Positions 2,039 through 30,861 of a DNA stretch of 32,000 bases are shown here, one piece after another. The stretch's first letter is position 1, and every line of letters begins with the position of its first letter. Below the pieces are notes generated by a model. It made no database searches. It was not told where the DNA came from and saw only the letters and a list, made by a program, of their open reading frames with translations. This DNA comes from Gemmata obscuriglobus (GTDB lineage Bacteria; Planctomycetota; Planctomycetia; Gemmatales; Gemmataceae): NCBI RefSeq assembly GCF_008065095.1, contig NZ_CP042911.1, positions 4,980,001 through 5,012,000 of the forward strand. The letters are read 5' to 3'. Made by a program: the position numbers and the translations under genes.

Positions 2039-2932
2039 TCAGTAATCTTGCTTTTCAAGCTTCAAGAGCGTGTCTTTAAACGCCTTGGCACTCGGGTAGC
2101 GATCGGCGGGCTCACGTGAAATGGACTTCAGTAGGATGTCCGAGAGCCGGTCATCGAGCTTCGGGTTCAGGTCCTTTGCAACGCGCGGCGGTTGGTTGAG
2201 ACGCCGACGGAAGGTCTCCTCACTCGAAGGCGACCGTTCCCACGGCAACTGGCTCGTGAACACCTCATAGGCCGTGACCCCGAGGGCGAACAGGTCAACG
2301 CGGTGATCGGTGTCTTTCCGCTTCAGGATCTCGGGCGCGAGGATGTCCGGGGTACCGGTTCGGTTCCCCCCCCGACAAAACTCGGGGGTGTAGGGAATGG
2401 TCAGACCGAAGTCGATCAGCTTGAGCACCCCGTCTTTGTCGACCATCACGTTGCGTGGGCACAGGTCGCGGTGCAGCCACTTGTTGTCGTGCATGTACTG
2501 CAACGCGTCGCAGAGCTGGCCGAGGTAGTAGATCCGGTTCCCGTTCAGCTGCGGGGATCGCGTTTCAATCAGGTAGTTCAGTCCGAGGCCGTCGACCCAC
2601 TCCATCACCAGACACGGTGAACCGTCCTCGGTGACCCCCGCCTCGAACGTGCGCACCACGTTCTCGTGCTTCAGCGCCGCACAGATCTCGCCTTCGTGCG
2701 GCTTCTTCAGACCGACGAACCGCTCCTCGAACTTCTTGGTCTTCAGTTTGTCGAGGATCTTGAGACAGACGGTGCGGCCGAGCTCCCGGTCGTAGGCCCG
2801 GTACACCTTCGACATGCTCCCTTGACCGGTGCGTCCGCTCAGCTCGAACCGCCGAGCGACGTTAATCCGCTTCAGCCCCTTGGTGGAGCCGCCGCCCTTC
2901 GATTTACCGAACAGGAAGTCGAACAGGCCCAC
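2039..2932 (-). CDS. Ser/Thr protein kinase, kinase domain only (~297 aa)
   Basis: Hanks-type motifs: GQGSMSKVYRA (G-loop), VCLKIL (VAIK-like), HRDLCPRNVMV (catalytic loop), IDFG, ILAPEIL (APE). The tracked ORF starts at a TTG at 3004. The GTG at 2932 has a GAGG 6 nt upstream and removes a Cys/Arg-rich leader, so it is preferred. Confidence 0.85.
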   Translation of the reverse strand: MGLFDFLFGKSKGGGSTKGLKRINVARRFELSGRTGQGSMSKVYRAYDRELGRTVCLKILDKLKTKKFEERFVGLKKPHEGEICAALKHENVVRTFEAGVTEDGSPCLVMEWVDGLGLNYLIETRSPQLNGNRIYYLGQLCDALQYMHDNKWLHRDLCPRNVMVDKDGVLKLIDFGLTIPYTPEFCRGGNRTGTPDILAPEILKRKDTDHRVDLFALGVTAYEVFTSQLPWERSPSSEETFRRRLNQPPRVAKDLNPKLDDRLSDILLKSISREPADRYPSAKAFKDTLLKLEKQDY

Positions 2933-3034
2933 GACACACCTCAGAAGCGCGGAGCACGGAACACAGCGTGCGGAACGAAGACGCTTGCACGGGCAACCAG
3001 ACAAGCTCCGCGTTTCGGACTCCGCACCCCGCCG

Positions 3035-3960: not shown

Positions 3961-5169
3961 TTACGCGCGGTCGTCGATTTGGGCCAGGCTCTGGAACTTC
4001 TTCCCCTCGACGTAAGCGAGGAACGCGCCGCCGCCGGTCGAGACGTGGGTCATCTTGTCCGCGTAGCCGAACTGCTCTGCGGCCTCGGCCGTCTCGCCCC
4101 CGCCCACAACCGTGACACCGGACGAGGCCGACATCGCTTCGGCGATGTACTGCGTGCCCCGCGCGAACGCCGCCTGCTCGAACCAGCCGAGCGGCCCGTT
4201 CCAGATCACGGTCGCGGCGTCTTTGACGGCAGCCTTGTACGCCTCGATCGTCTTCGGGCCGATGTCCACGCCCTCGAAGCCCGCCGGAATCGGCCCCTCG
4301 CAGACCTGCGTCTGGAGCAGGTCGTCGCTCTTGGCCACGACGTAATCGACCGGGAGCACGATCTTCGTCCCGACGTGCTTCAGCAGCGGACCGGCCGCCG
4401 CCACTTCCTCGTCTCCGACGCGGGTGGCGCCCACGTCCACGCCCCGCGCTTTGAGGAAGGTGTACGTCATCTTCCCGCCGATCAGGAGCTGATCGACCTT
4501 CGTGAGCAGCACGTTGATGAACGCGATCTTGTCCGACACCTTCGCGCCGCCCATGATCCCCAGGACCGGCGCCTTGGGCGCGCTCATCAGGCCCTCAATG
4601 ATCTCCAGCTCCTTCGCGACCAGGAGGCCGACCGCGCGGGGCTTACCGGCGGCCTTGAGGGCGGCCGGAACCGCGACCATGCTGGCGTCTTTGTCGTTGT
4701 GGCAGGTGCCGAAGGCGTCGTTGACGTAAGCGTCCGCGAGCGAAGCGATCGCCGCCGCGAACTCCGCGTCGTTCTTCTGCTCGCGCGGGTCGAACCGCAG
4801 GTTTTCGAGCAGGACCACGTCGCCCGGCTTCATTGCGGCAACGGCAGCGGTCACGCCGGCCCCGACCACCTCGCTGGCAGCCTTCTTGACCGGCGTACCG
4901 AGCAGTTCGGAGAACTTGGCGGCCACCTTGTCCATCGTGAGGTTGGCGCGCTCCTCCGGGGTGGCCTTCTCCGGCCGCCCGAGGTGGCTCATGGCGATCA
5001 CGCTCGCGCCCGCGTCGAGCAGGTGCTTGATCGTGGGCAGCGCGGCGCGGATGCGGCGGTCGTTCTTCACGGCGCCGGTCTTCTTGTCGAGCGGGACGTT
5101 GAAGTCCACGCGGACGAGCACCTTCTTACCCTTCAGGTCGCCGAGGTCGTCGAGGGTCTTCTTGGCCAC
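3961..5169 (-). CDS. pgk: phosphoglycerate kinase
   Basis: [27 protein letters not shown] and [10 protein letters not shown] motifs over a full-length 402 aa. GTG start with GAGG 9 nt upstream. Confidence 0.95.
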
Positions 5170-5301
5170 GGATCAGAACCTCAGAAAAAGAAGAGGGCCG
5201 CGGACGACCACAGAAAACACAGATCAAAACAGGCTGACGCAGCTTCCGTCCGAATCCGTGTCTTCTGCGGCGACCCGTGGCCGGTTGCCGACACCTTGGG
5301 C

Positions 5302-6486
<1,185 letters not shown>

Positions 6487-24316: not shown

Positions 24317-25192
24317 TTAACCGTCGATCTGTTGTGCCGCGGCGAGCGTGTTGTGGAGCAGCATGGTGATCGTCATCGGCCCGACCCCGCCGGGCACCGG
24401 CGACACCCACCCGGCCACGTCCCACACGCCCGGGTGAACGTCGCCGCACCAGCGCCCGTTCACGTTATTCGTTCCGACATCGATCACGACCGCACCGGGG
24501 CGCACCATATCGGCAGTAAGAAACTCCGGAACGCCCGCCGCCGCGACGAGCACGTCGGCCCCGCGGCACACGGCGGCGAGGTCGGAGGTGCGGGTGTGGG
24601 CGACGGTCACCGTCGCGTCCGCGGCGGCGGGGTTCGCGGCCGTCGGCTTCTGCATGAGCATCAGCGCGAGCGGCTTGCCGACGATGTTACTGCGGCCGAC
24701 GACGACGACCGATTTTCCCGCGAGGGAAACGCCGTTGCGGGTCAGCAACTGGATCACGCCGTGCGGCGTGCAGGGGTAGAACCGCGGGTGCCCGGCGGCC
24801 AACAGCCCGACGTTTTCCGGGTGGAAGCAATCGACATCCTTGGCGGGCGCAACTGCCCGGATGACCGCCTCGCCGTCGATCTGTTTGGGCAGCGGGAGTT
24901 GGACCAGAATGCCGTGAACGGCGGGGTCGGCGTTGAGCTGCGCGACCAGAGCGAGTAGCTCGGCCTGCGAGGTGGTCGCGGGCAGTCGGTGGGCCGCCGT
25001 GGCGAACCCCACATCCTGGCAGGCCTTGTGCTTGTTCTTGACGTACTGCTGGCTGGCCGGGTCTTCGCCGACCAGCACGGCCGCGAGCCCGGGGGCTCGC
25101 TTCCCGGCCGCGGCACGCGCCTGGACCTGGGTCGCGATCTCGCCCCGCATCGTTGCGGCAAGAGCCTTTCCGTCGAGCTTTTGAGCCGGCAT
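24317..25192 (-). CDS. folD: bifunctional methylenetetrahydrofolate dehydrogenase/methenyltetrahydrofolate cyclohydrolase
   Basis: LVGEDPASQQYVKNKHKAC, GILVQLPLP, CTPHGV, VVVVGRSNIVGKP and PVPGGVGPMTITMLL. Confidence 0.93.
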   Translation of the reverse strand: MPAQKLDGKALAATMRGEIATQVQARAAAGKRAPGLAAVLVGEDPASQQYVKNKHKACQDVGFATAAHRLPATTSQAELLALVAQLNADPAVHGILVQLPLPKQIDGEAVIRAVAPAKDVDCFHPENVGLLAAGHPRFYPCTPHGVIQLLTRNGVSLAGKSVVVVGRSNIVGKPLALMLMQKPTAANPAAADATVTVAHTRTSDLAAVCRGADVLVAAAGVPEFLTADMVRPGAVVIDVGTNNVNGRWCGDVHPGVWDVAGWVSPVPGGVGPMTITMLLHNTLAAAQQIDG

Positions 25193-25261
25193 TGCGCTGT
25201 CTGTGTTCGTGGGTGTGGTTTCAGGATGTCGTTGTAGGCGGGACGGGGCCGCTCGTTTTCT

Positions 25262-25298
25262 GAAAACAACGAGTGCGGGAGGCCGAGCGGCCTCCCGC
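25262..25298 (-). terminator. intrinsic terminator-like hairpin after the sirtuin gene
   Basis: Perfect 10-bp stem gcgggaggcc / ggcctcccgc with a 4-nt loop. On the minus strand it is followed by actcgttgttttc, which is T-rich. Confidence 0.5.
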
Positions 25299-25314
25299 GC
25301 CTTTGAAGTGCCCT

Positions 25315-26064
25315 CTACCCGAGTCGCTGAAGCAGCTTCGGGAGCACCTCACCTGACGGTCCGTAAAGCCCAATGTCGGCGTACGCGCTGGCCTCGGTGC
25401 GGGTGATGTTCACTTCGATCACCGTTGCACCTTTGCGCCGCGCGATCGGAACGAGCGACGCGGCCGGGTGAACCACCGCCGATGTGCCGACCACCAGCAG
25501 CGTGTCGCACTCGCTCGCGCTCACCATCGCTTCCATCCAGATGTCGTCGGGCAGCCCCTCACCGAACCAGACGATATGCGGACGCAGCCGGCCGTGGCAC
25601 TGCGGGCACTCCGGCGCGTCTCCGAGCGGTTCCAACCCGCGGTTCGTGACAGCCTCACAAACGGTGCAACGCGTTTGGCGCAAGCTGCCGTGAATCTCAA
25701 GAACCCGACGGCTGCCGGCTTGGAGGTGAAGGCCGTCGACGTTCTGTGTCACCAGCTTGAAGTTGTCGCCGAAGCGGTCTTCGAGCGCAACAAGAGCGAA
25801 GTGCCCCGGGTTGGGTTTCACGGTCGCGACGTTCGCGCGGCGGGCGTTGTAGAACTGCCACACGAGCGCCGGGTTGCGGTCCCAGCCGTCGGGGCTGGCC
25901 ACGTCCTCAATGCGGTGCCCTTCCCAGAGCCCGTCCGAGGCGCGGAACGTGGGCACCCCGCTCTCGGCCGAAATGCCCGCTCCTGTGAGCACACAGACGC
26001 TCTTGGCGGCCCGCAACCAGCGGGCGGCTCGATCGAGGGCGTCGTTGAGTTCGTCGTCGGTCAT
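25315..26064 (-). CDS. cobB: NAD-dependent protein deacylase, CobB/Sir2 family (249 aa)
   Basis: GAGISAESGVPTFR, QNVDGLH, Zn-ribbon cysteines CTVCEAV...CPQCHG and VVGTSAVVHPAA. The ATG at 26064 is chosen; the tracked 427-aa ORF has an Arg/Gly-rich non-coding-looking leader. Confidence 0.88.
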   Translation of the reverse strand: MTDDELNDALDRAARWLRAAKSVCVLTGAGISAESGVPTFRASDGLWEGHRIEDVASPDGWDRNPALVWQFYNARRANVATVKPNPGHFALVALEDRFGDNFKLVTQNVDGLHLQAGSRRVLEIHGSLRQTRCTVCEAVTNRGLEPLGDAPECPQCHGRLRPHIVWFGEGLPDDIWMEAMVSASECDTLLVVGTSAVVHPAASLVPIARRKGATVIEVNITRTEASAYADIGLYGPSGEVLPKLLQRLG

Positions 26065-26138
26065 TCGCGATTCCCAGTTGGCCGACCGGGGGACCGTTTG
26101 AGAATAACCGCTGCGCCCGCCGCTGGCAACGCGGTGGT

Positions 26139-27488
26139 TCACCCGGTGACGACCGAGCCGGCTTCCCGGCACAGTTGCGCGGTCCGCTCCGGATCGGGCG
26201 TTTCGGCGATCACCCGCACCACCGGCTCGGTGTTGCTGCCGCGCACGTGCAGCCACCAGTCGGGGCCGTCGAGCCGCAGCCCGTCGTCGCGGTTGATCGT
26301 CGCCTCCGGCCACCGCGCTTCGAGAGCCGCGATCGCGTCCGGGAGCCGCTCGCGCGAGATGGTAAACTTGGTTTTGAGCATCGCGTACCGGGGCAGTTCG
26401 GCGACGAGCTGCGAGAACGGCTTGCGCTCCTCGGCCATCAGCGACAGGATGAACGCCATCCCCACGAACGGGTCGCGCACCCACCCGATGCGCGGGTCGA
26501 TGACGCCGCCGTTGCCTTCGCCCCCGAGTACCGCGCCGGTCTCGCGCATGAGGGCGACCACGTTCGCCTCGCCGACCGCCGAGCGGACGCACGGGCACCC
26601 CGCGGCCGCCGCCACGTCCTGGTTCATCCGCGACGTGGACATGTTGATGGCGACCGTGCCGGGCTGCTGCCGGAGCCGGTACTTCACGGCGAGCGCGAGC
26701 GTGGCCTCCTCGCTCACGCAGTCCCCGTTCTCATCGATCAGCGCCAGGCGATCGGAGTCGGGGTCGAGCACGAACCCGATCGCGCACTCGTGCTGCTTCA
26801 CCCAGGGGGCCACGTCAACAAGGTGAGCCGGGATCGGTTCGGGCTCGTGCGCGAACACGCCGGTCGCCTCGCACCCGTGCGCGATCACCTCGCAACCGAA
26901 GTCGGTGAGCATCTTCACCCCGAGCGGGCCGCCGGCGCCGCCGTTGGCGTCGAGGAACACCCGGAAGCGCTGCCCCGCGACCGCCGCGACGCTGACCGTG
27001 TCGAGTACGGCCTGCACGTGATCCGCGCCGACGTCCGGGGGGACGCCGACGGTGCCGATTCCGTTCCACGCCGCGCGGGCGAAGTCGCCGGATTCGTACA
27101 GCCCGCGGATGACGGCACCGGCGGCGGCCGGTAGCACCGCGCCGTCGGAGCCGAACATCTTCAGCCCGTTCCACGGTGCCGGGTTGTGGCTCGCGGTGAT
27201 CTGGATCGCGCCCGCGGCGTTCAACTGCCGCACCGCGAACCCGCACGTGGGCGTCGAGGCGATCCCGAGGTCTTCGACCTTGCAACCGGCGCTGAGCAGC
27301 CCCGCCGTAACCGCGTGGCGGAGCATTTCGCCGCTGGGGCGCCCGTCGTTGGAGACGATGACCCGTTTGCCGGCCACGGTCGAACCGTAGGCGGCCGCGA
27401 ACCGGGTGGCGGCTTCGGCGGTGAGGCCCGCGCCGACGATTCCGCGAATGCCCGAGACGGACACGATGAGATCGGACGGAACCGCCAT
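26139..27488 (-). CDS. alpha-D-phosphohexomutase family enzyme (phosphoglucosamine mutase / phosphomannomutase-like)
   Basis: SVSGIRG, the catalytic TASHNPAPWNGLK, the metal loop DPDSDR and GGEGNGG. The tracked start at 27494 is TTG; the ATG is at 27488. Confidence 0.88.
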   Translation of the reverse strand: MAVPSDLIVSVSGIRGIVGAGLTAEAATRFAAAYGSTVAGKRVIVSNDGRPSGEMLRHAVTAGLLSAGCKVEDLGIASTPTCGFAVRQLNAAGAIQITASHNPAPWNGLKMFGSDGAVLPAAAGAVIRGLYESGDFARAAWNGIGTVGVPPDVGADHVQAVLDTVSVAAVAGQRFRVFLDANGGAGGPLGVKMLTDFGCEVIAHGCEATGVFAHEPEPIPAHLVDVAPWVKQHECAIGFVLDPDSDRLALIDENGDCVSEEATLALAVKYRLRQQPGTVAINMSTSRMNQDVAAAAGCPCVRSAVGEANVVALMRETGAVLGGEGNGGVIDPRIGWVRDPFVGMAFILSLMAEERKPFSQLVAELPRYAMLKTKFTISRERLPDAIAALEARWPEATINRDDGLRLDGPDWWLHVRGSNTEPVVRVIAETPDPERTAQLCREAGSVVTG

Positions 27489-27548
27489 CGGCAAACCCTT
27501 GGTGCGAAACGGGCGACGAAGGGTGTTGTACGGACGGCTCTCGCACCC

Positions 27549-28910
27549 TCAACTCGCCGGGTACGTGTGTGCTCCGGGCCATGTGATGCGATCAAAGAGC
27601 GCCCACAACTTCCGCCCGCGCACCGGGTTCACCCCCGCAACGTATGCCACCCGGCCGGCGAGGTGCGAGCGAAAGTCCGGGTGTCCGCTTCGGTTCTGAT
27701 CGGCGGGGCCGTGCCGCACGCAGTTGGTCAGAATTGCTTTCAGCCGGTCGAACTCGGCGCGCGGCACGTTGGGCCGCTGGTTCACCACAACCCCCGTCAC
27801 GGTCTGCCGCCCGCCGCCCCCCATCACCCGGGTTTTCCCGCGGTTAAGAGCAAAGCCCTCTTCTGCGGCGATGAGCGTGACCCGTCGAACGAACCGTGCG
27901 GCGTTCCGGCGCAAGAGTTCACCGCCGGAGAACGTGAGATCATCGGCGTAGCGTGTGTACGTCGCCCCGCACGCGGCGGCGAGCCCGGCCAGTCGCCGAT
28001 CCAGCCGCAACGCGACCAAGTTTGCCAGTGCCGGAGAGGTGGGCGCGCCTTGGGGGAGGTGTCGCGATGTGAGCCGGGCACGGGTGGCGTGCTCGGAACC
28101 GTCGTTCAGCGGGTTCGGGCGTTCGTTCCAGTCGTTGGAAGCCAGGCGCGTCGTGCAGAGGCCGGACAACAGCCGCGCGACCGACTCGCGGTAGCCGAGT
28201 GCGAGGAACAGCGCGAGAACGCGCCCGACGGGCACTGACGCGAAGAAGTCGGTGAGGTCGAAGCGGATCACGATCGCGTGGCCGCAGTGCGGGGTCGCGT
28301 TGGTAACGATCGAGCGCCCCGGTCGGAACCCGTGAACGGCCGGGTGCGGTGGAACGTGGTTCAAAAGGTCCGCCAGCAGCTTTCGCTGAACCCGTTTGAG
28401 CGGCGGAACGGGGATTTCGAGCAGTCGGGCGCGCCCCTTGGGTTTCGGCACCCAGCGCACGCGATACGACCGCACGCCCTTGCTGATGGCGTTCCGCCCA
28501 GCCGGGTCCGCGAGCCAGAGCAGATGGCCGACCGGAACGCCGAGCCATTCGGCGAGCGCCGGCTCGTTGGGTAACACGGGGAGACCGCTGGCCCAGTCGG
28601 GGCGCGGGCGGGGCGGCGGTTCCGGCGGCGCAAAGATGTGCCACACGGGGAACCGATCCGCCGGATACCGTGCGGTCGCCAGCGCGGCCAGCGCACGCAC
28701 GAACCCCGGATCACGGCCAAGAAACGCGAGCAGTTCGTTGAACGTTGGCGGGGTGGCGTGTGCGGTGTGGACCCGCTTTGCGAACCGCGGCGTCCAGCCG
28801 AACCGCTTTCCCGTTGCCCGGTAGACGGAGGTGCGGAGCCCCGCGACGCTCCATTCGCCAGCCAGCAGCGCCGCCGCGAGGTTGCTCACGAATCGGTTCG
28901 CGGTCATCAC
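27549..28910 (-). CDS. retron-type reverse transcriptase with ~100-aa N-terminal extension
   Basis: RT motifs in order: KPKGRARLLEIP, HGFRPGRSIVTNATPH (NAxxH), IRFDLTDFF, LPQGAPTSPALANL, YTRYADDLTFS, LNRGKTRV and TVTGVVVN (VTG), followed by a ~85-aa C-terminal tail. There is a GTG at 28910 and an ATG at 28907. Confidence 0.9.
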   Translation of the reverse strand: MMTANRFVSNLAAALLAGEWSVAGLRTSVYRATGKRFGWTPRFAKRVHTAHATPPTFNELLAFLGRDPGFVRALAALATARYPADRFPVWHIFAPPEPPPRPRPDWASGLPVLPNEPALAEWLGVPVGHLLWLADPAGRNAISKGVRSYRVRWVPKPKGRARLLEIPVPPLKRVQRKLLADLLNHVPPHPAVHGFRPGRSIVTNATPHCGHAIVIRFDLTDFFASVPVGRVLALFLALGYRESVARLLSGLCTTRLASNDWNERPNPLNDGSEHATRARLTSRHLPQGAPTSPALANLVALRLDRRLAGLAAACGATYTRYADDLTFSGGELLRRNAARFVRRVTLIAAEEGFALNRGKTRVMGGGGRQTVTGVVVNQRPNVPRAEFDRLKAILTNCVRHGPADQNRSGHPDFRSHLAGRVAYVAGVNPVRGRKLWALFDRITWPGAHTYPAS

Positions 28911-28926
28911 GTTCGTGGTCAGAGGG

Positions 28927-29091
28927 CCGCGAGCGGGCCGACGAATCCCGTCCTGCGCGACAAGACGGGCGTGGAAGCGCCCCTACTGTCGCGCGCTCAA
29001 TCCTCAGGCATCGAACGACCCCGGGGTAGCCCCGGAGCAACAGCTCGCGCTCGTTGAGAGCGTTTCACCGTTGTGCTCGGCCCGCTCGCGG
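28927..29091 (-). ncRNA. candidate retron msr-msd non-coding RNA
   Basis: A perfect 15-bp inverted repeat (29091-29077 ccgcgagcgggccga; 28941-28927 tcggcccgctcgcgg, minus-strand reading) brackets 135 nt. An unpaired G at 29076 in an AGC context follows the 5' arm directly. There are two stem-loops in the 5' half and a hairpin in the 3' half. The 3' arm ends 16 nt before the RT start. Confidence 0.45.
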
Positions 29092-29134
29092 TGTTTGGGA
29101 TGTTGCCGTCCGGGCGGGGCGGCGGCAATCTCGG

Positions 29135-29311
29135 TTACTCCTTGTTCTCTTTTTCCGCTTCCTTCTTCACGTACTCCTTAAACGCCGCCATGTTGTAGCT
29201 GATGAACAAGAACGTGTGGTGCAGCGCCTGGTACGTCTCGTCTTCGGGATCGTCGGCGTAATCCTTCCGCAGCGCATAAAGCTTCGCGAGCAACTGGTCG
29301 GCGTTCATCAT
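29135..29311 (-). CDS. hypothetical small acidic protein (58 aa), absent from the ORF track
   Basis: ATG ATG ... TAA encodes MMNADQLLAKLYALRKDYADDPEDETYQALHHTFLFISYNMAAFKEYVKKEAEKENKE. By my count 49 of 58 codons end in G/C while overall GC is only ~52 percent, a strong coding signature for this genome. Confidence 0.55.
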   Translation of the reverse strand: MMNADQLLAKLYALRKDYADDPEDETYQALHHTFLFISYNMAAFKEYVKKEAEKENKE

Positions 29312-29460
29312 CGCACCGGTTCCGGTCGGGTTGGTTCAACTCAGGGGGCGTCACAGCCGATGGGGATTCTACCCATCTTGACGCGCCCCGGCGCCGGTGT
29401 TACCGTTCCACGCCGCACGCCCAGGGACGGGCGCGCAGACCGAACGGCGAAGGCGCATTG

Positions 29461-30861
29461 ATGGTTCGTCGAGTCAGTCAGTCGCTGGTCGCGTGGTTCC
29501 TGCTCTGGGACCTCACCCTCACCGCCGCCGGGTGGCTGGCCGCGTACTACGTGCGGTTCCACACCGGTCTCTTCTCCGTTCATCGCGGCGTACCCGATTT
29601 TGCCCTGTACCTGCGCGCGCTCCCGTTGATCCTGCTCGCCGGGGCGATCACCTACCGGTTCGCCGGGATGTACGAGATTCATCGGTTGCGCCGGTTCCGC
29701 GAAGAACTCGCCGCGGTCGGAAAGGGCGTCGGGCTGATGGCGCTGGTGGTGATGGCGATCAGCTTCGCCCGGCACGCGCAGCACGAGTCGCGCGGCGCCA
29801 TGGTGATGTTTACCGTCGTCACCTTGCTCACGCTCCTGGTAGTGCGGCGGATCAGTTGGCTCGGGATCAGGCAGCTCCGCGCCCGGGGCGTGAACCAGAG
29901 TCACGCGCTGGTCGTCGGCACCGGGCGGCTCGCCCGGCGCACCGTGCGCACCCTGCACTCCGTGTCGTGGTCGGGCATCCAGCCCGTCGGCTACGTCGAG
30001 GACGACGCGCACCGCGGGGCGGGCGCCGACCTGCCGGTGCTCGGGGGCCTCGCGGAACTGCCGGAATTGGTCGAGCGGCACCACATTGAGCACGTCTTCG
30101 TCGCGCTGCCGTTGAACCGCTACGCGGACGCCCGGCGGGTGTTCGCCGCGCTCTCACAGACCGTTGTGGACGTGCAACTCATCGCCGACCTGCCCGCGAT
30201 GGCCGGGATGACGTTCACCACCACGCAGATCCACGGGATGACGGTGATCGGGCTGCGCGAGAACCCGCACCACGGGCTCAACATGGTCGTGAAGCGCGTC
30301 ATGGACGTGATCCTGGCGTGCGTGGCGATCGTGCTGCTGGCCCCGCTGATGGGGTTCATCGCGCTGCTCGTCAAGCTGACCAGCCCGGGGCCTCTGCTGT
30401 ACCGGCAGGAGCGGTGCGGGCTGAACGGCCGCTCGTTCATGATGCTCAAGTTCCGCAGCATGCGGGTCGACGCCGAGGCGGCCGGCCCGCAGATGACGGG
30501 CGCCAACGACCCGCGGCGCACCCGGCTCGGAACGGTCATGCGGGCCACCAACCTCGACGAGCTGCCGCAGTTCTTTAACGTGCTGTGGGGCGACATGAGC
30601 ATCGTCGGGCCGCGGCCCGAGCGGCCGGTGTTCGTGAGCAAGTTCGCCAAGACCATTCCGAACTACAACGCCCGCCACGCGGTGAAGGCCGGCATCACCG
30701 GCTGGGCGCAGGTGAACGGCTGGCGCGGCAACTCGTCGCTCCGCAAGCGCGTGCAGTTCGACCTGTACTACATCAGCCACTGGAACCCGCTGTTCGACCT
30801 CCGCATCATTTTCCTGACCGTGTGGCGAATGCTGTTCTCGAAGCAGAAACACGCCTACTGA
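29461..30861 (+). CDS. polyprenyl-phosphate hexose-1-phosphate transferase (WcaJ/EpsB-like bacterial sugar transferase)
   Basis: N-terminal TM segments, then PGPLLYRQERCGLNGRSFMMLKFRSM, DELPQFFNVLWGDMSIVGPRPERP and GITGWAQVNG. The tracked start at 29458 is TTG; the ATG is at 29461. Confidence 0.9.
   Translation: MVRRVSQSLVAWFLLWDLTLTAAGWLAAYYVRFHTGLFSVHRGVPDFALYLRALPLILLAGAITYRFAGMYEIHRLRRFREELAAVGKGVGLMALVVMAISFARHAQHESRGAMVMFTVVTLLTLLVVRRISWLGIRQLRARGVNQSHALVVGTGRLARRTVRTLHSVSWSGIQPVGYVEDDAHRGAGADLPVLGGLAELPELVERHHIEHVFVALPLNRYADARRVFAALSQTVVDVQLIADLPAMAGMTFTTTQIHGMTVIGLRENPHHGLNMVVKRVMDVILACVAIVLLAPLMGFIALLVKLTSPGPLLYRQERCGLNGRSFMMLKFRSMRVDAEAAGPQMTGANDPRRTRLGTVMRATNLDELPQFFNVLWGDMSIVGPRPERPVFVSKFAKTIPNYNARHAVKAGITGWAQVNGWRGNSSLRKRVQFDLYYISHWNPLFDLRIIFLTVWRMLFSKQKHAY

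What the first reader, a model, noticed from the sequence alone, without database searches (positions are those of the whole stretch)
27549..29311. Retron-like module (small ORF - structured RNA - RT) with no recognisable effector gene, embedded among housekeeping sugar-metabolism genes
The minus-strand RT has retron-diagnostic signatures: NAxxH in SIVTNATPH, VTG in TVTGVVVN, QGAPTSP and YADD. Directly upstream on the same strand lie a 165-nt inverted-repeat-bounded structured region and then a 58-aa ORF. Characterised retrons are tripartite, with the ncRNA and RT joined by an effector such as an ATPase/TOPRIM, nucleoside deoxyribosyltransferase-like, 2TM, protease or TIR protein. None of those domains is adjacent here. 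The downstream neighbour, 54 bp away with no clear terminator, is a phosphohexomutase, followed by a canonical sirtuin and folD. The upstream neighbour is a divergent sugar-phosphate transferase. There are four options. The effector could be the RT's own N-terminal extension, the 58-aa acidic protein, or a gene encoded elsewhere. Alternatively, this is an effector-less retron-like element with a different role. Any of these would be an unusual architecture.
Basis: partly seen in the sequence, partly recalled or inferred. Interest (0 to 1): 0.85.

Follow-up and report, generated by a model that had tools for sequence, protein, structure and literature searches.

The report
Stand-alone retron in Gemmata obscuriglobus
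This is a genuine retron (a structured RNA gene plus its reverse transcriptase) from an already catalogued lineage that has no neighbouring effector gene in any of 84 copies examined; the small ORF beside it is an unrelated conserved gene, and what such retrons do is still unknown.

Summary
A 453-aa retron-type RT lies at 27549-28910 (-) and carries the NAxxH, VTG and YADD motifs. A 165-nt element bounded by a perfect 15-nt inverted repeat lies at 28927-29091 (-), and a 58-aa ORF at 29135-29311 (-). The genome is Gemmata obscuriglobus.

The RNA has canonical retron msr-msd anatomy: an a1/a2 stem with two opposing Gs, a conserved CUCCGGGG-YUA-CCCCGGGG hairpin and a long msd stem. A covariance model finds it just upstream of the RT in all 83 homologous loci that have upstream sequence, across Planctomycetota, Burkholderiaceae, Acidobacteriota and Actinomycetota.

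No neighbouring protein family is conserved across those loci, and no defence effector recurs. The absence of an effector is therefore real and holds for the whole family.

The 58-aa ORF is not part of the element. It is a highly conserved Gemmataceae gene that pairs with the divergent sugar transferase even where no RT is present.

The RT has a family-specific N-terminal five-helix domain with no recognisable fold relative.

The architecture is not new. Mestre et al. 2020 described stand-alone (msr-msd)-RT cassettes ("orphan retrons", clade 11 and the Ec107 branch), and PADLOC's untyped retron RT model matches this protein full-length. Verdict: a new member of a known but functionally unsolved kind.

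The parts
27549..28910 (-). Retron-type reverse transcriptase, 453 aa. GTG start at 28910, with an ATG at 28907.
   Evidence: ORF. PADLOC RT_other 4.6e-153 and RT_outgroup 2.1e-144. Pfam RVT_1 covers residues 154-363. The best PDB sequence and fold matches are all retron RTs. dN/dS is about 0.16 against Gemmata orthologues.
28677..28910 (-). Family-specific N-terminal five-helix domain of the RT (residues 1-78). A Pro-rich linker follows (residues 79-104, 28599-28676).
   Evidence: AF2 models have pLDDT about 90, with helices at 2-17, 22-33, 40-50, 57-66 and 68-78. There is no Pfam, PDB-sequence or PDB-fold match. A profile of the domain gives 255 hits; in the listed hits it sits at or near the N-terminus, and all eight sequences inspected were RTs or truncated RT fragments. 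dN/dS is 0.22-0.24.
28927..29091 (-). Retron msr-msd ncRNA gene, 165 nt, bounded by the a2/a1 inverted repeat.
   Evidence: Covariance model R1 scores 97 bits, E = 5e-22, and this is the only hit in the window.
29077..29091 (-). 5' arm of the terminal stem (CCGCGAGCGGGCCGA).
   Evidence: Perfect 15-nt inverted repeat. Arm pairs covary across loci: 9 of 10 pairs show changes on both sides.
29076..29076 (-). Predicted priming (branching) G, directly 3' of the 5' arm. The 'A|G' context is invariant.
   Evidence: A10 and G11 are invariant in 35 aligned ncRNAs. Position. The role as 2'-OH primer is inferred from canonical retrons.
29039..29072 (-). Variable msr hairpin P1.
   Evidence: Present in the MFE fold. 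A hairpin occupies this position in relatives, but its sequence is not conserved.
29019..29037 (-). Conserved msr hairpin CUCCGGGG-CUA-CCCCGGGG.
   Evidence: Nearly invariant across phyla. 99.3% of cells are paired and two pairs show compensatory changes.
28955..28996 (-). Long msd stem-loop, the predicted template for msDNA.
   Evidence: MFE fold. Five of the seven modelled pairs show compensatory changes.
28942..28942 (-). Opposing G, directly 5' of the 3' arm.
   Evidence: The 'G|T' context recurs in nearly all loci.
28927..28941 (-). 3' arm of the terminal stem (TCGGCCCGCTCGCGG). It ends 16 nt before the RT start codon.

Best explanation
The locus is a two-component retron: an msr-msd ncRNA gene (28927-29091, minus strand) followed directly by its RT (27549-28910). 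It belongs to a widespread lineage of stand-alone ncRNA-RT cassettes that has no linked effector gene.

Shown:
- The RT is retron-class by motifs, profiles and fold.
- The ncRNA has retron anatomy and accompanies the RT in every homologous locus that has upstream sequence.
- No protein-coding neighbour is conserved across the family.
- The 58-aa ORF belongs with the divergent sugar-transferase gene, not with the retron.
- The RT carries a conserved, family-exclusive N-terminal five-helix domain.

Inferred:
- One transcript carries the ncRNA and the RT ORF.
- The 15-bp terminal stem forms, and the RT docks on the conserved CUCCGGGG/CCCCGGGG msr hairpin.
- The RT primes from the 2'-OH of G29076 and copies the msd from about 28942 through the 28955-28996 stem. 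This would give a hairpin msDNA of roughly 60-80 nt that stays bound to the RT.
- The 1.6-kb cassette has moved between phyla without any companion gene and still stays under purifying selection. It is therefore most likely self-sufficient. The RT-msDNA particle would act either through its own N-terminal domain (an effector or adaptor fused in cis) or through a universally present host or phage factor, rather than through a dedicated unlinked effector.
- Whether the output is anti-phage or something else is not established.
For: RT class:
- PADLOC RT_other 4.6e-153, aligned full-length (residues 3-447 to model 67-473/481). RT_outgroup, labelled 'retron', 2.1e-144. The next best is RT_XIII at 6e-100.
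- PDB sequence hits are led by retron Ec86, Ec67, Kva2 and Ec78.
- The top 18 Foldseek hits are all retron RTs.
- The motif residues are invariant or at least 90% conserved.

ncRNA:
- Fold z-score -4.69 and a perfect 15-nt inverted repeat.
- Arm stems exceed the shuffled 95th percentile in 42 of 66 loci.
- Covariation: 97.4% of cells paired and 176 double-change cells, against 49 when shuffled.
- Model R1 finds the element in 83 of 83 RT loci with upstream sequence, 48 of them outside the training set. It finds none in four loci that lack the RT.

No cis effector:
- All-vs-all clustering of flanking ORFs gives only within-genus synteny.
- The 96 nearest neighbours fall into 135 Pfam families. 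The most recurrent is PGM, with 5 members; tblastn places PGM next to the RT only in Planctomycete loci.
- PADLOC hits among those neighbours are singletons.
- The window itself is housekeeping: PGK, GAPDH, MDH, folD and AcrB.

Small ORF excluded.

N-terminal domain.

Purifying selection: dN/dS 0.16.

Long residence:
- GC content equals that of the flanks.
- The same locus holds the retron in Gemmata relatives and in one Fimbriiglobus genome, and RT identity falls in step with PGM identity.

Literature:
- Stand-alone cassettes are recognised in clade 11 and the Ec107 branch (PMC7736814).
- Retrons from every RT clade were tested for RT-DNA production. Clades other than 2, 9, 10, 3 and 4 gave intermediate production (PMC10849725).
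Against: - No msDNA has been observed for this locus or organism; the priming site and msDNA length are inferred by analogy.
- No promoter was identified.
- The N-terminal domain has no catalytic-looking motif and no fold relative. Its role as effector or adaptor is conjecture; it could simply help bind the ncRNA.
- An unlinked effector cannot be excluded from a 32-kb window.
- Assignment to Mestre's clade 11 rests on PADLOC model names, the stand-alone architecture and a matching taxonomic spread. It does not rest on a phylogeny with the reference sequences.
- One relative (L002) carries an inserted ORF related to a candidate defence protein between the ncRNA and the RT. Accessory genes can therefore join this cassette.
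Confidence: 0.75

Rival explanations
1. It is a conventional tripartite retron whose effector is encoded elsewhere in the genome and acts in trans. The RT-msDNA complex would hold an unlinked toxin in check until phage infection.
For: Characterised retrons use an effector. Mestre et al. raise this possibility explicitly for orphan retrons (PMC7736814). Only 32 kb of a roughly 9-Mb genome is visible.
Against: The cassette occurs in at least four phyla, in unrelated housekeeping contexts. That distribution requires transfer of the cassette alone; a dedicated unlinked partner would not travel with it. Mestre et al. report that most genomes with orphan retrons lack homologues of known retron-associated proteins. 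No type XIII effector or any other effector model recurs near the relatives.
Confidence: 0.2
2. It is a domesticated, vertically inherited retron with a cellular, non-defence role, for example regulation or DNA/RNA metabolism through the msDNA. In Planctomycetes this role might be coupled to the downstream PGM-sirtuin-folD genes.
For: - The retron sits at the same chromosomal locus across Gemmata. One Fimbriiglobus genome has the same RT-PGM-SIR2-folD order.
- In a Planctomycetaceae genome (L036) PGM is also adjacent, but divergent.
- RT divergence tracks PGM divergence (dN/dS).
- There is no defence island around it.
- There is no terminator between the RT and PGM.
- Mestre et al. suggest domestication for vertically inherited clades.
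Against: PGM adjacency is limited to Planctomycetes (5 of 96 neighbours) and is interrupted by LRR genes in L081 and L082. Between phyla the RT tree is patchy: Paraburkholderia RTs are as close to this RT as other Planctomycete RTs are, which is typical of mobile defence genes. RT GC3 (0.81) is lower than that of PGM and Bac_transf (0.92-0.93).
Confidence: 0.2
3. The 58-aa acidic protein (29135-29311) is the retron's third component, acting as a small toxin or effector.
For: - It lies on the same strand, 43 nt upstream of the ncRNA.
- It is conserved at 90-91% identity in two Gemmata relatives that also carry the retron at this locus.
- Contig lengths in the homologue tables suggest that several short metagenomic contigs carry both genes.
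- Small-protein toxins are known in type VI retrons (preprint 10.64898/2026.04.27.721009, abstract).
Against: - It is absent within 6 kb of the RT in the 80 genome-collection loci, L001-L080.
- In L082 (Gemmata sp. G18) no homologue was found next to the retron.
- In four genomes it sits beside the divergent Bac_transf gene with no RT following.
- In Fimbriiglobus L022 the retron stays with PGM instead.
- It is far more conserved than the RT: 80-94% identity among the 120 listed of 605 clusters, against 52-80% for the listed RT homologues. That is the pattern of a core gene, not of a co-evolving partner.
Confidence: 0.03
4. The element works like DRT2. The RT would copy the ncRNA repeatedly to build a de novo coding DNA, so the 'effector gene' is made by reverse transcription rather than encoded.
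For: It is a two-component RT plus ncRNA system with no effector gene, like DRT2 (PMC12483538 abstract). One frame of the cDNA strand of the 165-nt element has no stop codon.
Against: - The RT matches Drt2 at only 32 bits, against a cut-off of 390.
- DRT2 ranks 21st in the fold search, behind 18 retron RTs.
- The msd evolves by compensatory base-pair changes, which indicates structural rather than coding constraint.
- Stop-free frames are expected by chance in 68% GC sequence.
Confidence: 0.02

Closest known systems
Stand-alone (msr-msd)-RT cassettes of retron RT clade 11, called 'orphan retrons' (Mestre et al. 2020, PMC7736814; sub-families clade11-A and clade11-B in preprint 10.64898/2026.05.14.725207)
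   Same: The architecture is ncRNA plus RT with no associated protein. The retron RT motifs are present. The ncRNA has a1/a2 arms and opposing Gs. The taxonomic spread of relatives (Burkholderiaceae, Actinomycetota, Acidobacteriota) matches that reported for clade11-A. PADLOC's untyped model RT_other fits full-length, including the N-terminal domain.
   Different: Membership could not be tested against the reference sequences or the clade11-A/B covariance models, because neither is held here. Mestre et al. described clade 11 as essentially restricted to Actinobacteria. This copy is from Planctomycetota, where the element is widespread and appears vertically inherited at a fixed locus.
Type XIII retrons (Mx162, Mx65, Sa163, Ne144; RT clade 10)
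   Same: RT_XIII is the closest typed PADLOC RT model (6.4e-100, residues 108-442). The RT_XIII model has about 107 positions ahead of the aligned region, so those RTs appear to carry their own N-terminal extension. Moderate vertical inheritance was reported for type XIII.
   Different: RT_XIII scores 175 bits below RT_other and does not align to the N-terminal domain here. The defining WH-SWIM and HEAT/ARM-repeat proteins are absent from this locus and from 96 neighbours of relatives.
Retron-Eco5 (Ec107)-like branch of clade 2
   Same: It is the other known lineage of retrons that mostly lack an associated protein.
   Different: It is a distant RT: PADLOC RT_Ec107-like scores 188 bits against 509 for RT_other. 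That model is only 307 positions long and aligns to the RT core alone, so it does not cover the N-terminal domain. It has a different taxonomic range, mostly Bacillota according to the SPIRE preprint.
Retrons with RT-fused effectors (types I-C Toprim, VII-A1 DUF3800, XI protease, XII TIR)
   Same: An extra domain is fused to the RT in a single-gene system with an ncRNA.
   Different: In those types the fusion is C-terminal and is a recognisable enzyme. Here the extra domain is N-terminal, about 80 aa, all-helical, and has no fold or family match.

Membership tests
Retron (ncRNA + retron-type RT) | RT with region X (NAxxH), region Y (VTG in RT7) and a YxDD active site | tested here: met
   TNATPH, TVTG and YADD are read. 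N204, H208, V371, G373, Y321, A322 and D324 are invariant in 51 family members, and D323 is at least 90% conserved.
Retron (ncRNA + retron-type RT) | RT closer to retron RTs than to group II intron, DGR, DRT/UG or Abi RTs | tested here: met
   - The top 25 PADLOC hits are all retron RT models.
- NCBIfam: retron models score 171-178 bits, against group II 55, Drt2 32 and Drt3a 19. All are below their family-specific cut-offs.
- PDB sequence search: retron RTs at 1e-33 to 1e-9, against group II RTs at 1e-6.
- Foldseek ranks 1-18 are all retron RTs.
Retron (ncRNA + retron-type RT) | Contiguous upstream ncRNA with terminal inverted repeats (a1/a2), msr hairpins and a long msd stem-loop | tested here: met
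   It is conserved with covariation in 83 of 83 loci that have upstream sequence.
Retron (ncRNA + retron-type RT) | Two opposing G residues at the inner end of the a1/a2 stem, one of them the priming G | tested here: met
   The 'A|G' at the 5' arm is invariant (A10, G11). 'G|T' at the 3' arm is nearly invariant.
Retron (ncRNA + retron-type RT) | Production of 2'-5' branched msDNA | not testable with these tools
   This needs nucleic-acid extraction and sequencing. The only indirect support is that retrons of every RT clade were sampled in the census of RT-DNA production (PMC10849725).
Tripartite retron systems, types I-XIII | A specific associated effector gene or RT-fused effector domain | tested here: not met
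   No neighbour is conserved. No retron effector model recurs among 96 neighbours. Nothing relevant is present in the window. The RT has no C-terminal extra domain.
Mestre clade 11 stand-alone retrons | Stand-alone ncRNA-RT cassette | tested here: met
Mestre clade 11 stand-alone retrons | RT falls within clade 11 in a phylogeny with the 1,928 reference RTs, or passes the clade 11 HMM threshold | not testable with these tools
   The reference sequences and supplements are not held. The only proxy is the best hit to PADLOC's untyped retron models, RT_other and RT_outgroup. My recollection that these models derive from Mestre's untyped groups is from memory, not a test.
Mestre clade 11 stand-alone retrons | ncRNA matches the clade11-A or clade11-B covariance model | not testable with these tools
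   Those models are not available. Rfam 15 gives no hit.
Type XIII retron | Adjacent WH-SWIM (cluster 114) and HEAT/ARM (cluster 216) proteins, and a clade 10 RT | tested here: not met
   RT_XIII scores 333 bits against 509 for RT_other. No such neighbours were found.
VMAP-M5 (PF19967), for the 58-aa ORF | Significant match to the Pfam model | tested here: inconclusive
   The collection's precomputed annotation lists PF19967.5 for this protein and most homologues. hmmscan against the current Pfam copy returns nothing, even at E <= 10.

The most novel reading that the evidence does not exclude
The lineage may be a self-contained retron in which the family-exclusive N-terminal five-helix domain of the RT is a new, non-enzymatic fused 'third component', acting as sensor, adaptor or effector. 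Alternatively, the cassette has been domesticated in Gemmataceae for a non-defence role, with the RT-msDNA particle itself as the functional output. It has been kept at a fixed locus next to PGM since before Gemmata and Fimbriiglobus diverged.
Probability: 0.2. Interest if true: 0.75.

Novelty: new member of a known kind. Interest (0 to 1): 0.4.

Why it matters
The function of retrons that lack any effector has been an acknowledged open question since the 2020 classification.

This locus adds a well-defined example:
- exact ncRNA boundaries and a predicted priming G;
- a covariance model that recovers the RNA in every relative with upstream sequence;
- family-wide evidence that no cis partner exists;
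- a delimited N-terminal domain that can be deleted or swapped.

It also shows the element held at one chromosomal site across a bacterial family, which is unusual for defence genes. Those points make the 'self-sufficient or trans-acting' question directly testable. They do not reveal a new kind of system.

Tried and rejected
- Rfam scan of 27000-30000 at E <= 1: no hit.
- Sigma-70 promoter and intrinsic-terminator scans: none found. They are uninformative for a Planctomycete.
- The small ORF as a retron component: rejected.
- The sirtuin as a SIR2-type defence effector: rejected. It is a 249-aa Sir2-family protein (PF02146, 1.2e-51) with no PADLOC match at E <= 0.01, and it is not retained next to the RT in L081 or L082.
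- PGM as effector: adjacency is seen only in Planctomycetes.
- LRR proteins downstream of the RT in L081 and L082: absent from this window, no PADLOC match.
- N-terminal domain identity: no Pfam match, no significant PDB sequence match (best E = 0.008, a Glu-tRNA ligase helical region), no fold match (best E = 4).
- The VMAP-M5 annotation of the small ORF could not be reproduced.
- The supplementary tables of Mestre et al. are not held, so no direct clade look-up was possible.
- Literature searches for Gemmata retrons and for effector-less retrons found nothing beyond Mestre et al. and the SPIRE preprint.
- DRT2-like coding by the ncRNA: rejected on covariation and RT class.
- Serine/threonine kinase at 2042-3004 hitting PADLOC PD-T4-6: this is generic kinase similarity, and the gene is 25 kb away.
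Full report
**What is at the coordinates.** The window comes from Gemmata obscuriglobus: the RT is 100% identical to a protein annotated from that species. On the minus strand lie three features:
- a 453-aa ORF at 27549-28910;
- a 165-nt element at 28927-29091, bounded by a perfect 15-nt inverted repeat;
- a 58-aa ORF at 29135-29311.

The RNA between the small ORF and the RT folds at -120.7 kcal/mol, with z = -4.69 against 200 dinucleotide shuffles. The neighbours are as described: a four-domain phosphohexomutase 54 nt downstream, then a sirtuin, folD and an AI-2E transporter, with a divergent CoA_binding_3 + Bac_transf sugar transferase upstream.

**The RT is a retron RT.**
- The best PADLOC models are RT_other (4.6e-153, covering residues 3-447) and RT_outgroup (2.1e-144, labelled 'retron'). 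RT_XIII follows at 6.4e-100, aligning only from residue 108, and then other typed retron RTs.
- NCBIfam gives retron models 171-178 bits, all below their family-specific cut-offs. Group II intron RT scores 55 bits, Drt2 32 and Drt3a 19.
- Every strong PDB sequence hit is a retron RT: Ec86 at 7e-33, then Ec67, Kva2, Ec78, Ec83 and Eco8.
- An AlphaFold model (pLDDT 89.5) returns retron RTs as Foldseek ranks 1-18. G2L4, DRT2, group II, DGR and Abi RTs come after them.

**The RNA is a retron msr-msd.** I collected 80 loci encoding relatives at 37-62% identity. They come from Planctomycetota, Burkholderia and Paraburkholderia, Acidobacteriota, Actinomycetota and others. I added three close Gemmata loci.

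In 28 of the 80 genome-collection loci plus the window, a perfect inverted repeat of at least 10 nt spans 146-183 nt and ends a few to about 50 nt before the RT start. The arm sequences are unrelated between loci. All share one architecture:
- a 5' arm ending in ...(C/G)A, then an unpaired G;
- a variable hairpin;
- a nearly invariant hairpin, CUCCGGGG-YUA-CCCCGGGG;
- a short hairpin;
- a long stem-loop;
- a G followed by the 3' arm, beginning with U.

These are the 'two opposing G residues' and the a1/a2 stem that define canonical retron ncRNAs (PMC7736814).

Three tests support the structure.
- With the opposing Gs required, the best arm stem exceeds the 95th percentile of shuffled flanks in 42 of 66 loci, and exceeds all 330 shuffles in 32.
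- On a 35-sequence alignment trimmed to 10-nt arms, 97.4% of cells are paired, against 76% after shuffling and 35-48% when partners are slid. There are 176 double-change cells, against 49. The arms were chosen for complementarity, so helix 1 is biased. Helices 2 and 3 were not chosen that way, and they still show compensatory changes, as in the earlier unbiased alignment.
- A covariance model built from this alignment finds the element on the RT strand, just upstream of the RT, in all 83 RT loci that have upstream sequence. L041 starts inside the RT. Forty-eight of those loci were not in the training set. The model gives one hit in the window (97 bits, 5e-22). It gives none in four loci that carry the small ORF but no RT.

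In window coordinates the 5' arm is 29077-29091 and the predicted priming G is 29076. The conserved hairpin is 29019-29037, the msd stem-loop 28955-28996, the opposing G 28942 and the 3' arm 28927-28941.

**There is no effector, here or in relatives.**
- All-vs-all BLASTP of every ORF of at least 50 aa within 4.5 kb of the RT gave only within-genus synteny groups, such as Burkholderia and Paraburkholderia.
- I scanned the 96 nearest credible neighbour genes from about 60 non-redundant loci. They matched 135 different Pfam families. The most recurrent was phosphoglucomutase, with five members; tblastn places PGM next to the RT only in Planctomycete loci. The rest were housekeeping singletons such as a DNA gyrase/topoisomerase IV subunit A homologue, CTP synthase, S1, Dus and sigma factors.
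- Against PADLOC the same neighbours gave only singleton hits and no retron effector model.
- The 32-kb window is central metabolism and transport: PGK, GAPDH, MDH, folD and an AcrB efflux pump. Its only PADLOC match is a generic Ser/Thr kinase 25 kb away.
- The sirtuin is an ordinary Sir2-family protein with no PADLOC match.

**The 58-aa ORF is not part of the retron.** It is a real gene. It is 90-91% identical in two Gemmata relatives, with dN/dS about 0.09-0.10. It has 605 homologous clusters, and the 120 listed are 78-94% identical. The sources that name an organism are Gemmataceae or other Planctomycetes.

Several facts separate it from the retron.
- It is absent within 6 kb of the RT in the 80 genome-collection loci, and no homologue sits beside the retron in Gemmata sp. 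G18 (L082).
- In Fimbriiglobus ruber and three other genomes it sits divergently next to the Bac_transf gene, with no RT after it and no ncRNA.
- A Fimbriiglobus MAG (L022) has ncRNA-RT-PGM-SIR2-folD in the same order as here. The retron therefore travels with the PGM side of the locus, not with the small ORF.

The collection's precomputed label for the small protein, Pfam PF19967.5 (VMAP-M5), could not be reproduced with the current Pfam.

**The N-terminal extension.** Residues 1-78 form five helices, followed by a proline-rich linker to about residue 104. The canonical retron RT0 region (LAEWLGV...LLWLAD...YRVRWVPKPKG) then begins.
- The domain is conserved across the family, with W20 and D67 invariant and R6, F7, R46 and P55 nearly so.
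- It is under purifying selection, with dN/dS 0.22-0.24.
- It has no Pfam, PDB-sequence or PDB-fold relative.
- A profile search of 1.84 billion representatives found 255 matches. In the listed hits the domain lies at or near the N-terminus, and all eight sequences I read were full-length RTs or truncated RT fragments.

It is thus a lineage-specific module of this RT. Nothing indicates an enzymatic activity.

**Evolutionary behaviour.**
- The retron's GC content is indistinguishable from that of its flanks. Its GC3 is 0.81, against 0.92-0.93 for PGM and Bac_transf.
- RT dN/dS against Gemmata orthologues is 0.16.
- Identity to the window falls in step for the RT and PGM: 80% and 91% for L083, 69% and 84% for L081 and L082, and 57% (best segment) and 67% for L022. 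This fits long vertical inheritance at one locus in Gemmataceae.
- Between phyla the distribution is patchy. Paraburkholderia RTs are as close to this RT as those of other Planctomycetes. The 1.6-kb cassette has therefore also moved horizontally, and with no companion gene.

**Most likely mechanism.** The shown facts are listed above. By inference from canonical retrons:
- One transcript carries the ncRNA and the RT ORF. The 3' arm ends 16 nt before the start codon.
- The terminal stem forms and the RT recognises the conserved msr hairpin.
- The RT primes on the 2'-OH of G29076 and copies the msd inward from about 28942. This gives a hairpin msDNA of roughly 60-80 nt (candidate) that remains bound to the RT.

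The cassette alone is what is conserved, transferred and selected. I therefore favour a self-sufficient particle acting through the N-terminal domain or through a universal host or phage factor. A dedicated unlinked effector (about 0.2) or a domesticated non-defence role (about 0.2) remain possible. None of these downstream steps is demonstrated.

**Comparison with what is known.** Mestre et al. 2020 classified retrons into 13 effector-defined types. They also noted stand-alone (msr-msd)-RT cassettes in a branch of clade 2 (Ec107-like) and in clade 11. They called them orphan retrons, noted that host genomes mostly lack known retron partners, and raised both trans effectors and 'a different mechanistic function'.

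A 2026 preprint separates clade 11 into two ncRNA families. It finds clade11-A mainly in Pseudomonadota, Actinomycetota and Acidobacteriota, and gives it low novelty priority. That taxonomic spread matches my loci.

PADLOC's RT_other model covers this protein end to end, so the family is already represented in a defence database. I could not test clade 11 membership directly, because the reference sequences, supplements and covariance models are not available. That assignment is therefore an inference.

Type XIII is the nearest typed group, but its defining proteins are absent and its RT model scores 175 bits lower.

A retron census reports sampling every RT clade, with intermediate RT-DNA production outside clades 2, 9, 10, 3 and 4.

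**Verdict.** This is a real, intact retron of the already described stand-alone kind. The 'small ORF' part of the proposed module is wrong, and the 'no effector' part is right but not new. It is a new member of a known kind, in a phylum where the element had not been discussed: no paper in the library mentions both retrons and Gemmata. The remaining interest lies in the unsolved function of orphan retrons, in the family-specific N-terminal domain, and in the element's unusual positional stability in Gemmataceae.

Noticed in passing
L002:5265-5828 (Fimbriiglobus sp. MAG JAYUFU010000191.1): In this one relative a 187-aa ORF lies between the ncRNA (5169-5313) and the RT (start about 5980); elsewhere the gap is usually a few tens of nt. 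Its residues 51-167 match the C-terminal third of the PADLOC candidate defence protein PDC-M32A at 9e-39. It has no Pfam match, and no homologue exists in the other 87 loci or in the window.
   Followed up: partly
L022:7523-10542, L036:4243-5571, L081-L083; window 24317-27494: Phosphoglucomutase is adjacent to the retron in six Planctomycete loci, counting the window. L022 has the same RT-PGM-SIR2-folD order as the window. In L036 (Planctomycetaceae) PGM is divergent and upstream of the ncRNA. No such link exists outside Planctomycetes, so this may be ancestral synteny or something more.
   Followed up: partly
L081:7714-8268 and L082:7571-9310: Leucine-rich-repeat protein genes (184 and 579 aa) are inserted on the RT strand between the RT and PGM in two Gemmata genomes. 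They are absent from G. obscuriglobus and have no PADLOC match.
   Followed up: partly
window 29135-29311 (-): The 58-aa protein is among the most conserved genes at this locus: 78-94% identity among the 120 listed of 605 clusters. It always pairs divergently with the Bac_transf gene. The collection labels it Pfam PF19967.5 (VMAP-M5, a domain of vWA-MoxR conflict systems), but the current Pfam gives no hit even at E <= 10. Its function is unknown.
   Followed up: partly
L082:6001-7530 (Gemmata sp. G18, JAGKQQ010000001.1): The deposited RT gene call (509 aa) overlaps the ncRNA found by the covariance model (5978-6137). The true start is probably near 6163, where homology begins.
   Followed up: no
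window 2042-3004 (-): A 321-aa Ser/Thr protein kinase matches many PADLOC PD-T4-6 models (best 1.2e-56), as well as mad6 and MkoA. This is probably generic kinase similarity. It is the only PADLOC-positive gene in the window besides the RT.
   Followed up: no
L035:7291-7438: There is a weak second covariance-model hit (23 bits, E = 0.006) just downstream of the RT in a Pirellulales MAG. It could be chance or a degenerate second ncRNA copy.
   Followed up: no
window 27549-28910 versus neighbours: The RT's third-position GC is 0.81, against 0.92-0.95 for PGM, Bac_transf and the AI-2E transporter, although overall GC is the same. This suggests weaker codon adaptation or lower expression despite long residence.
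   Followed up: no
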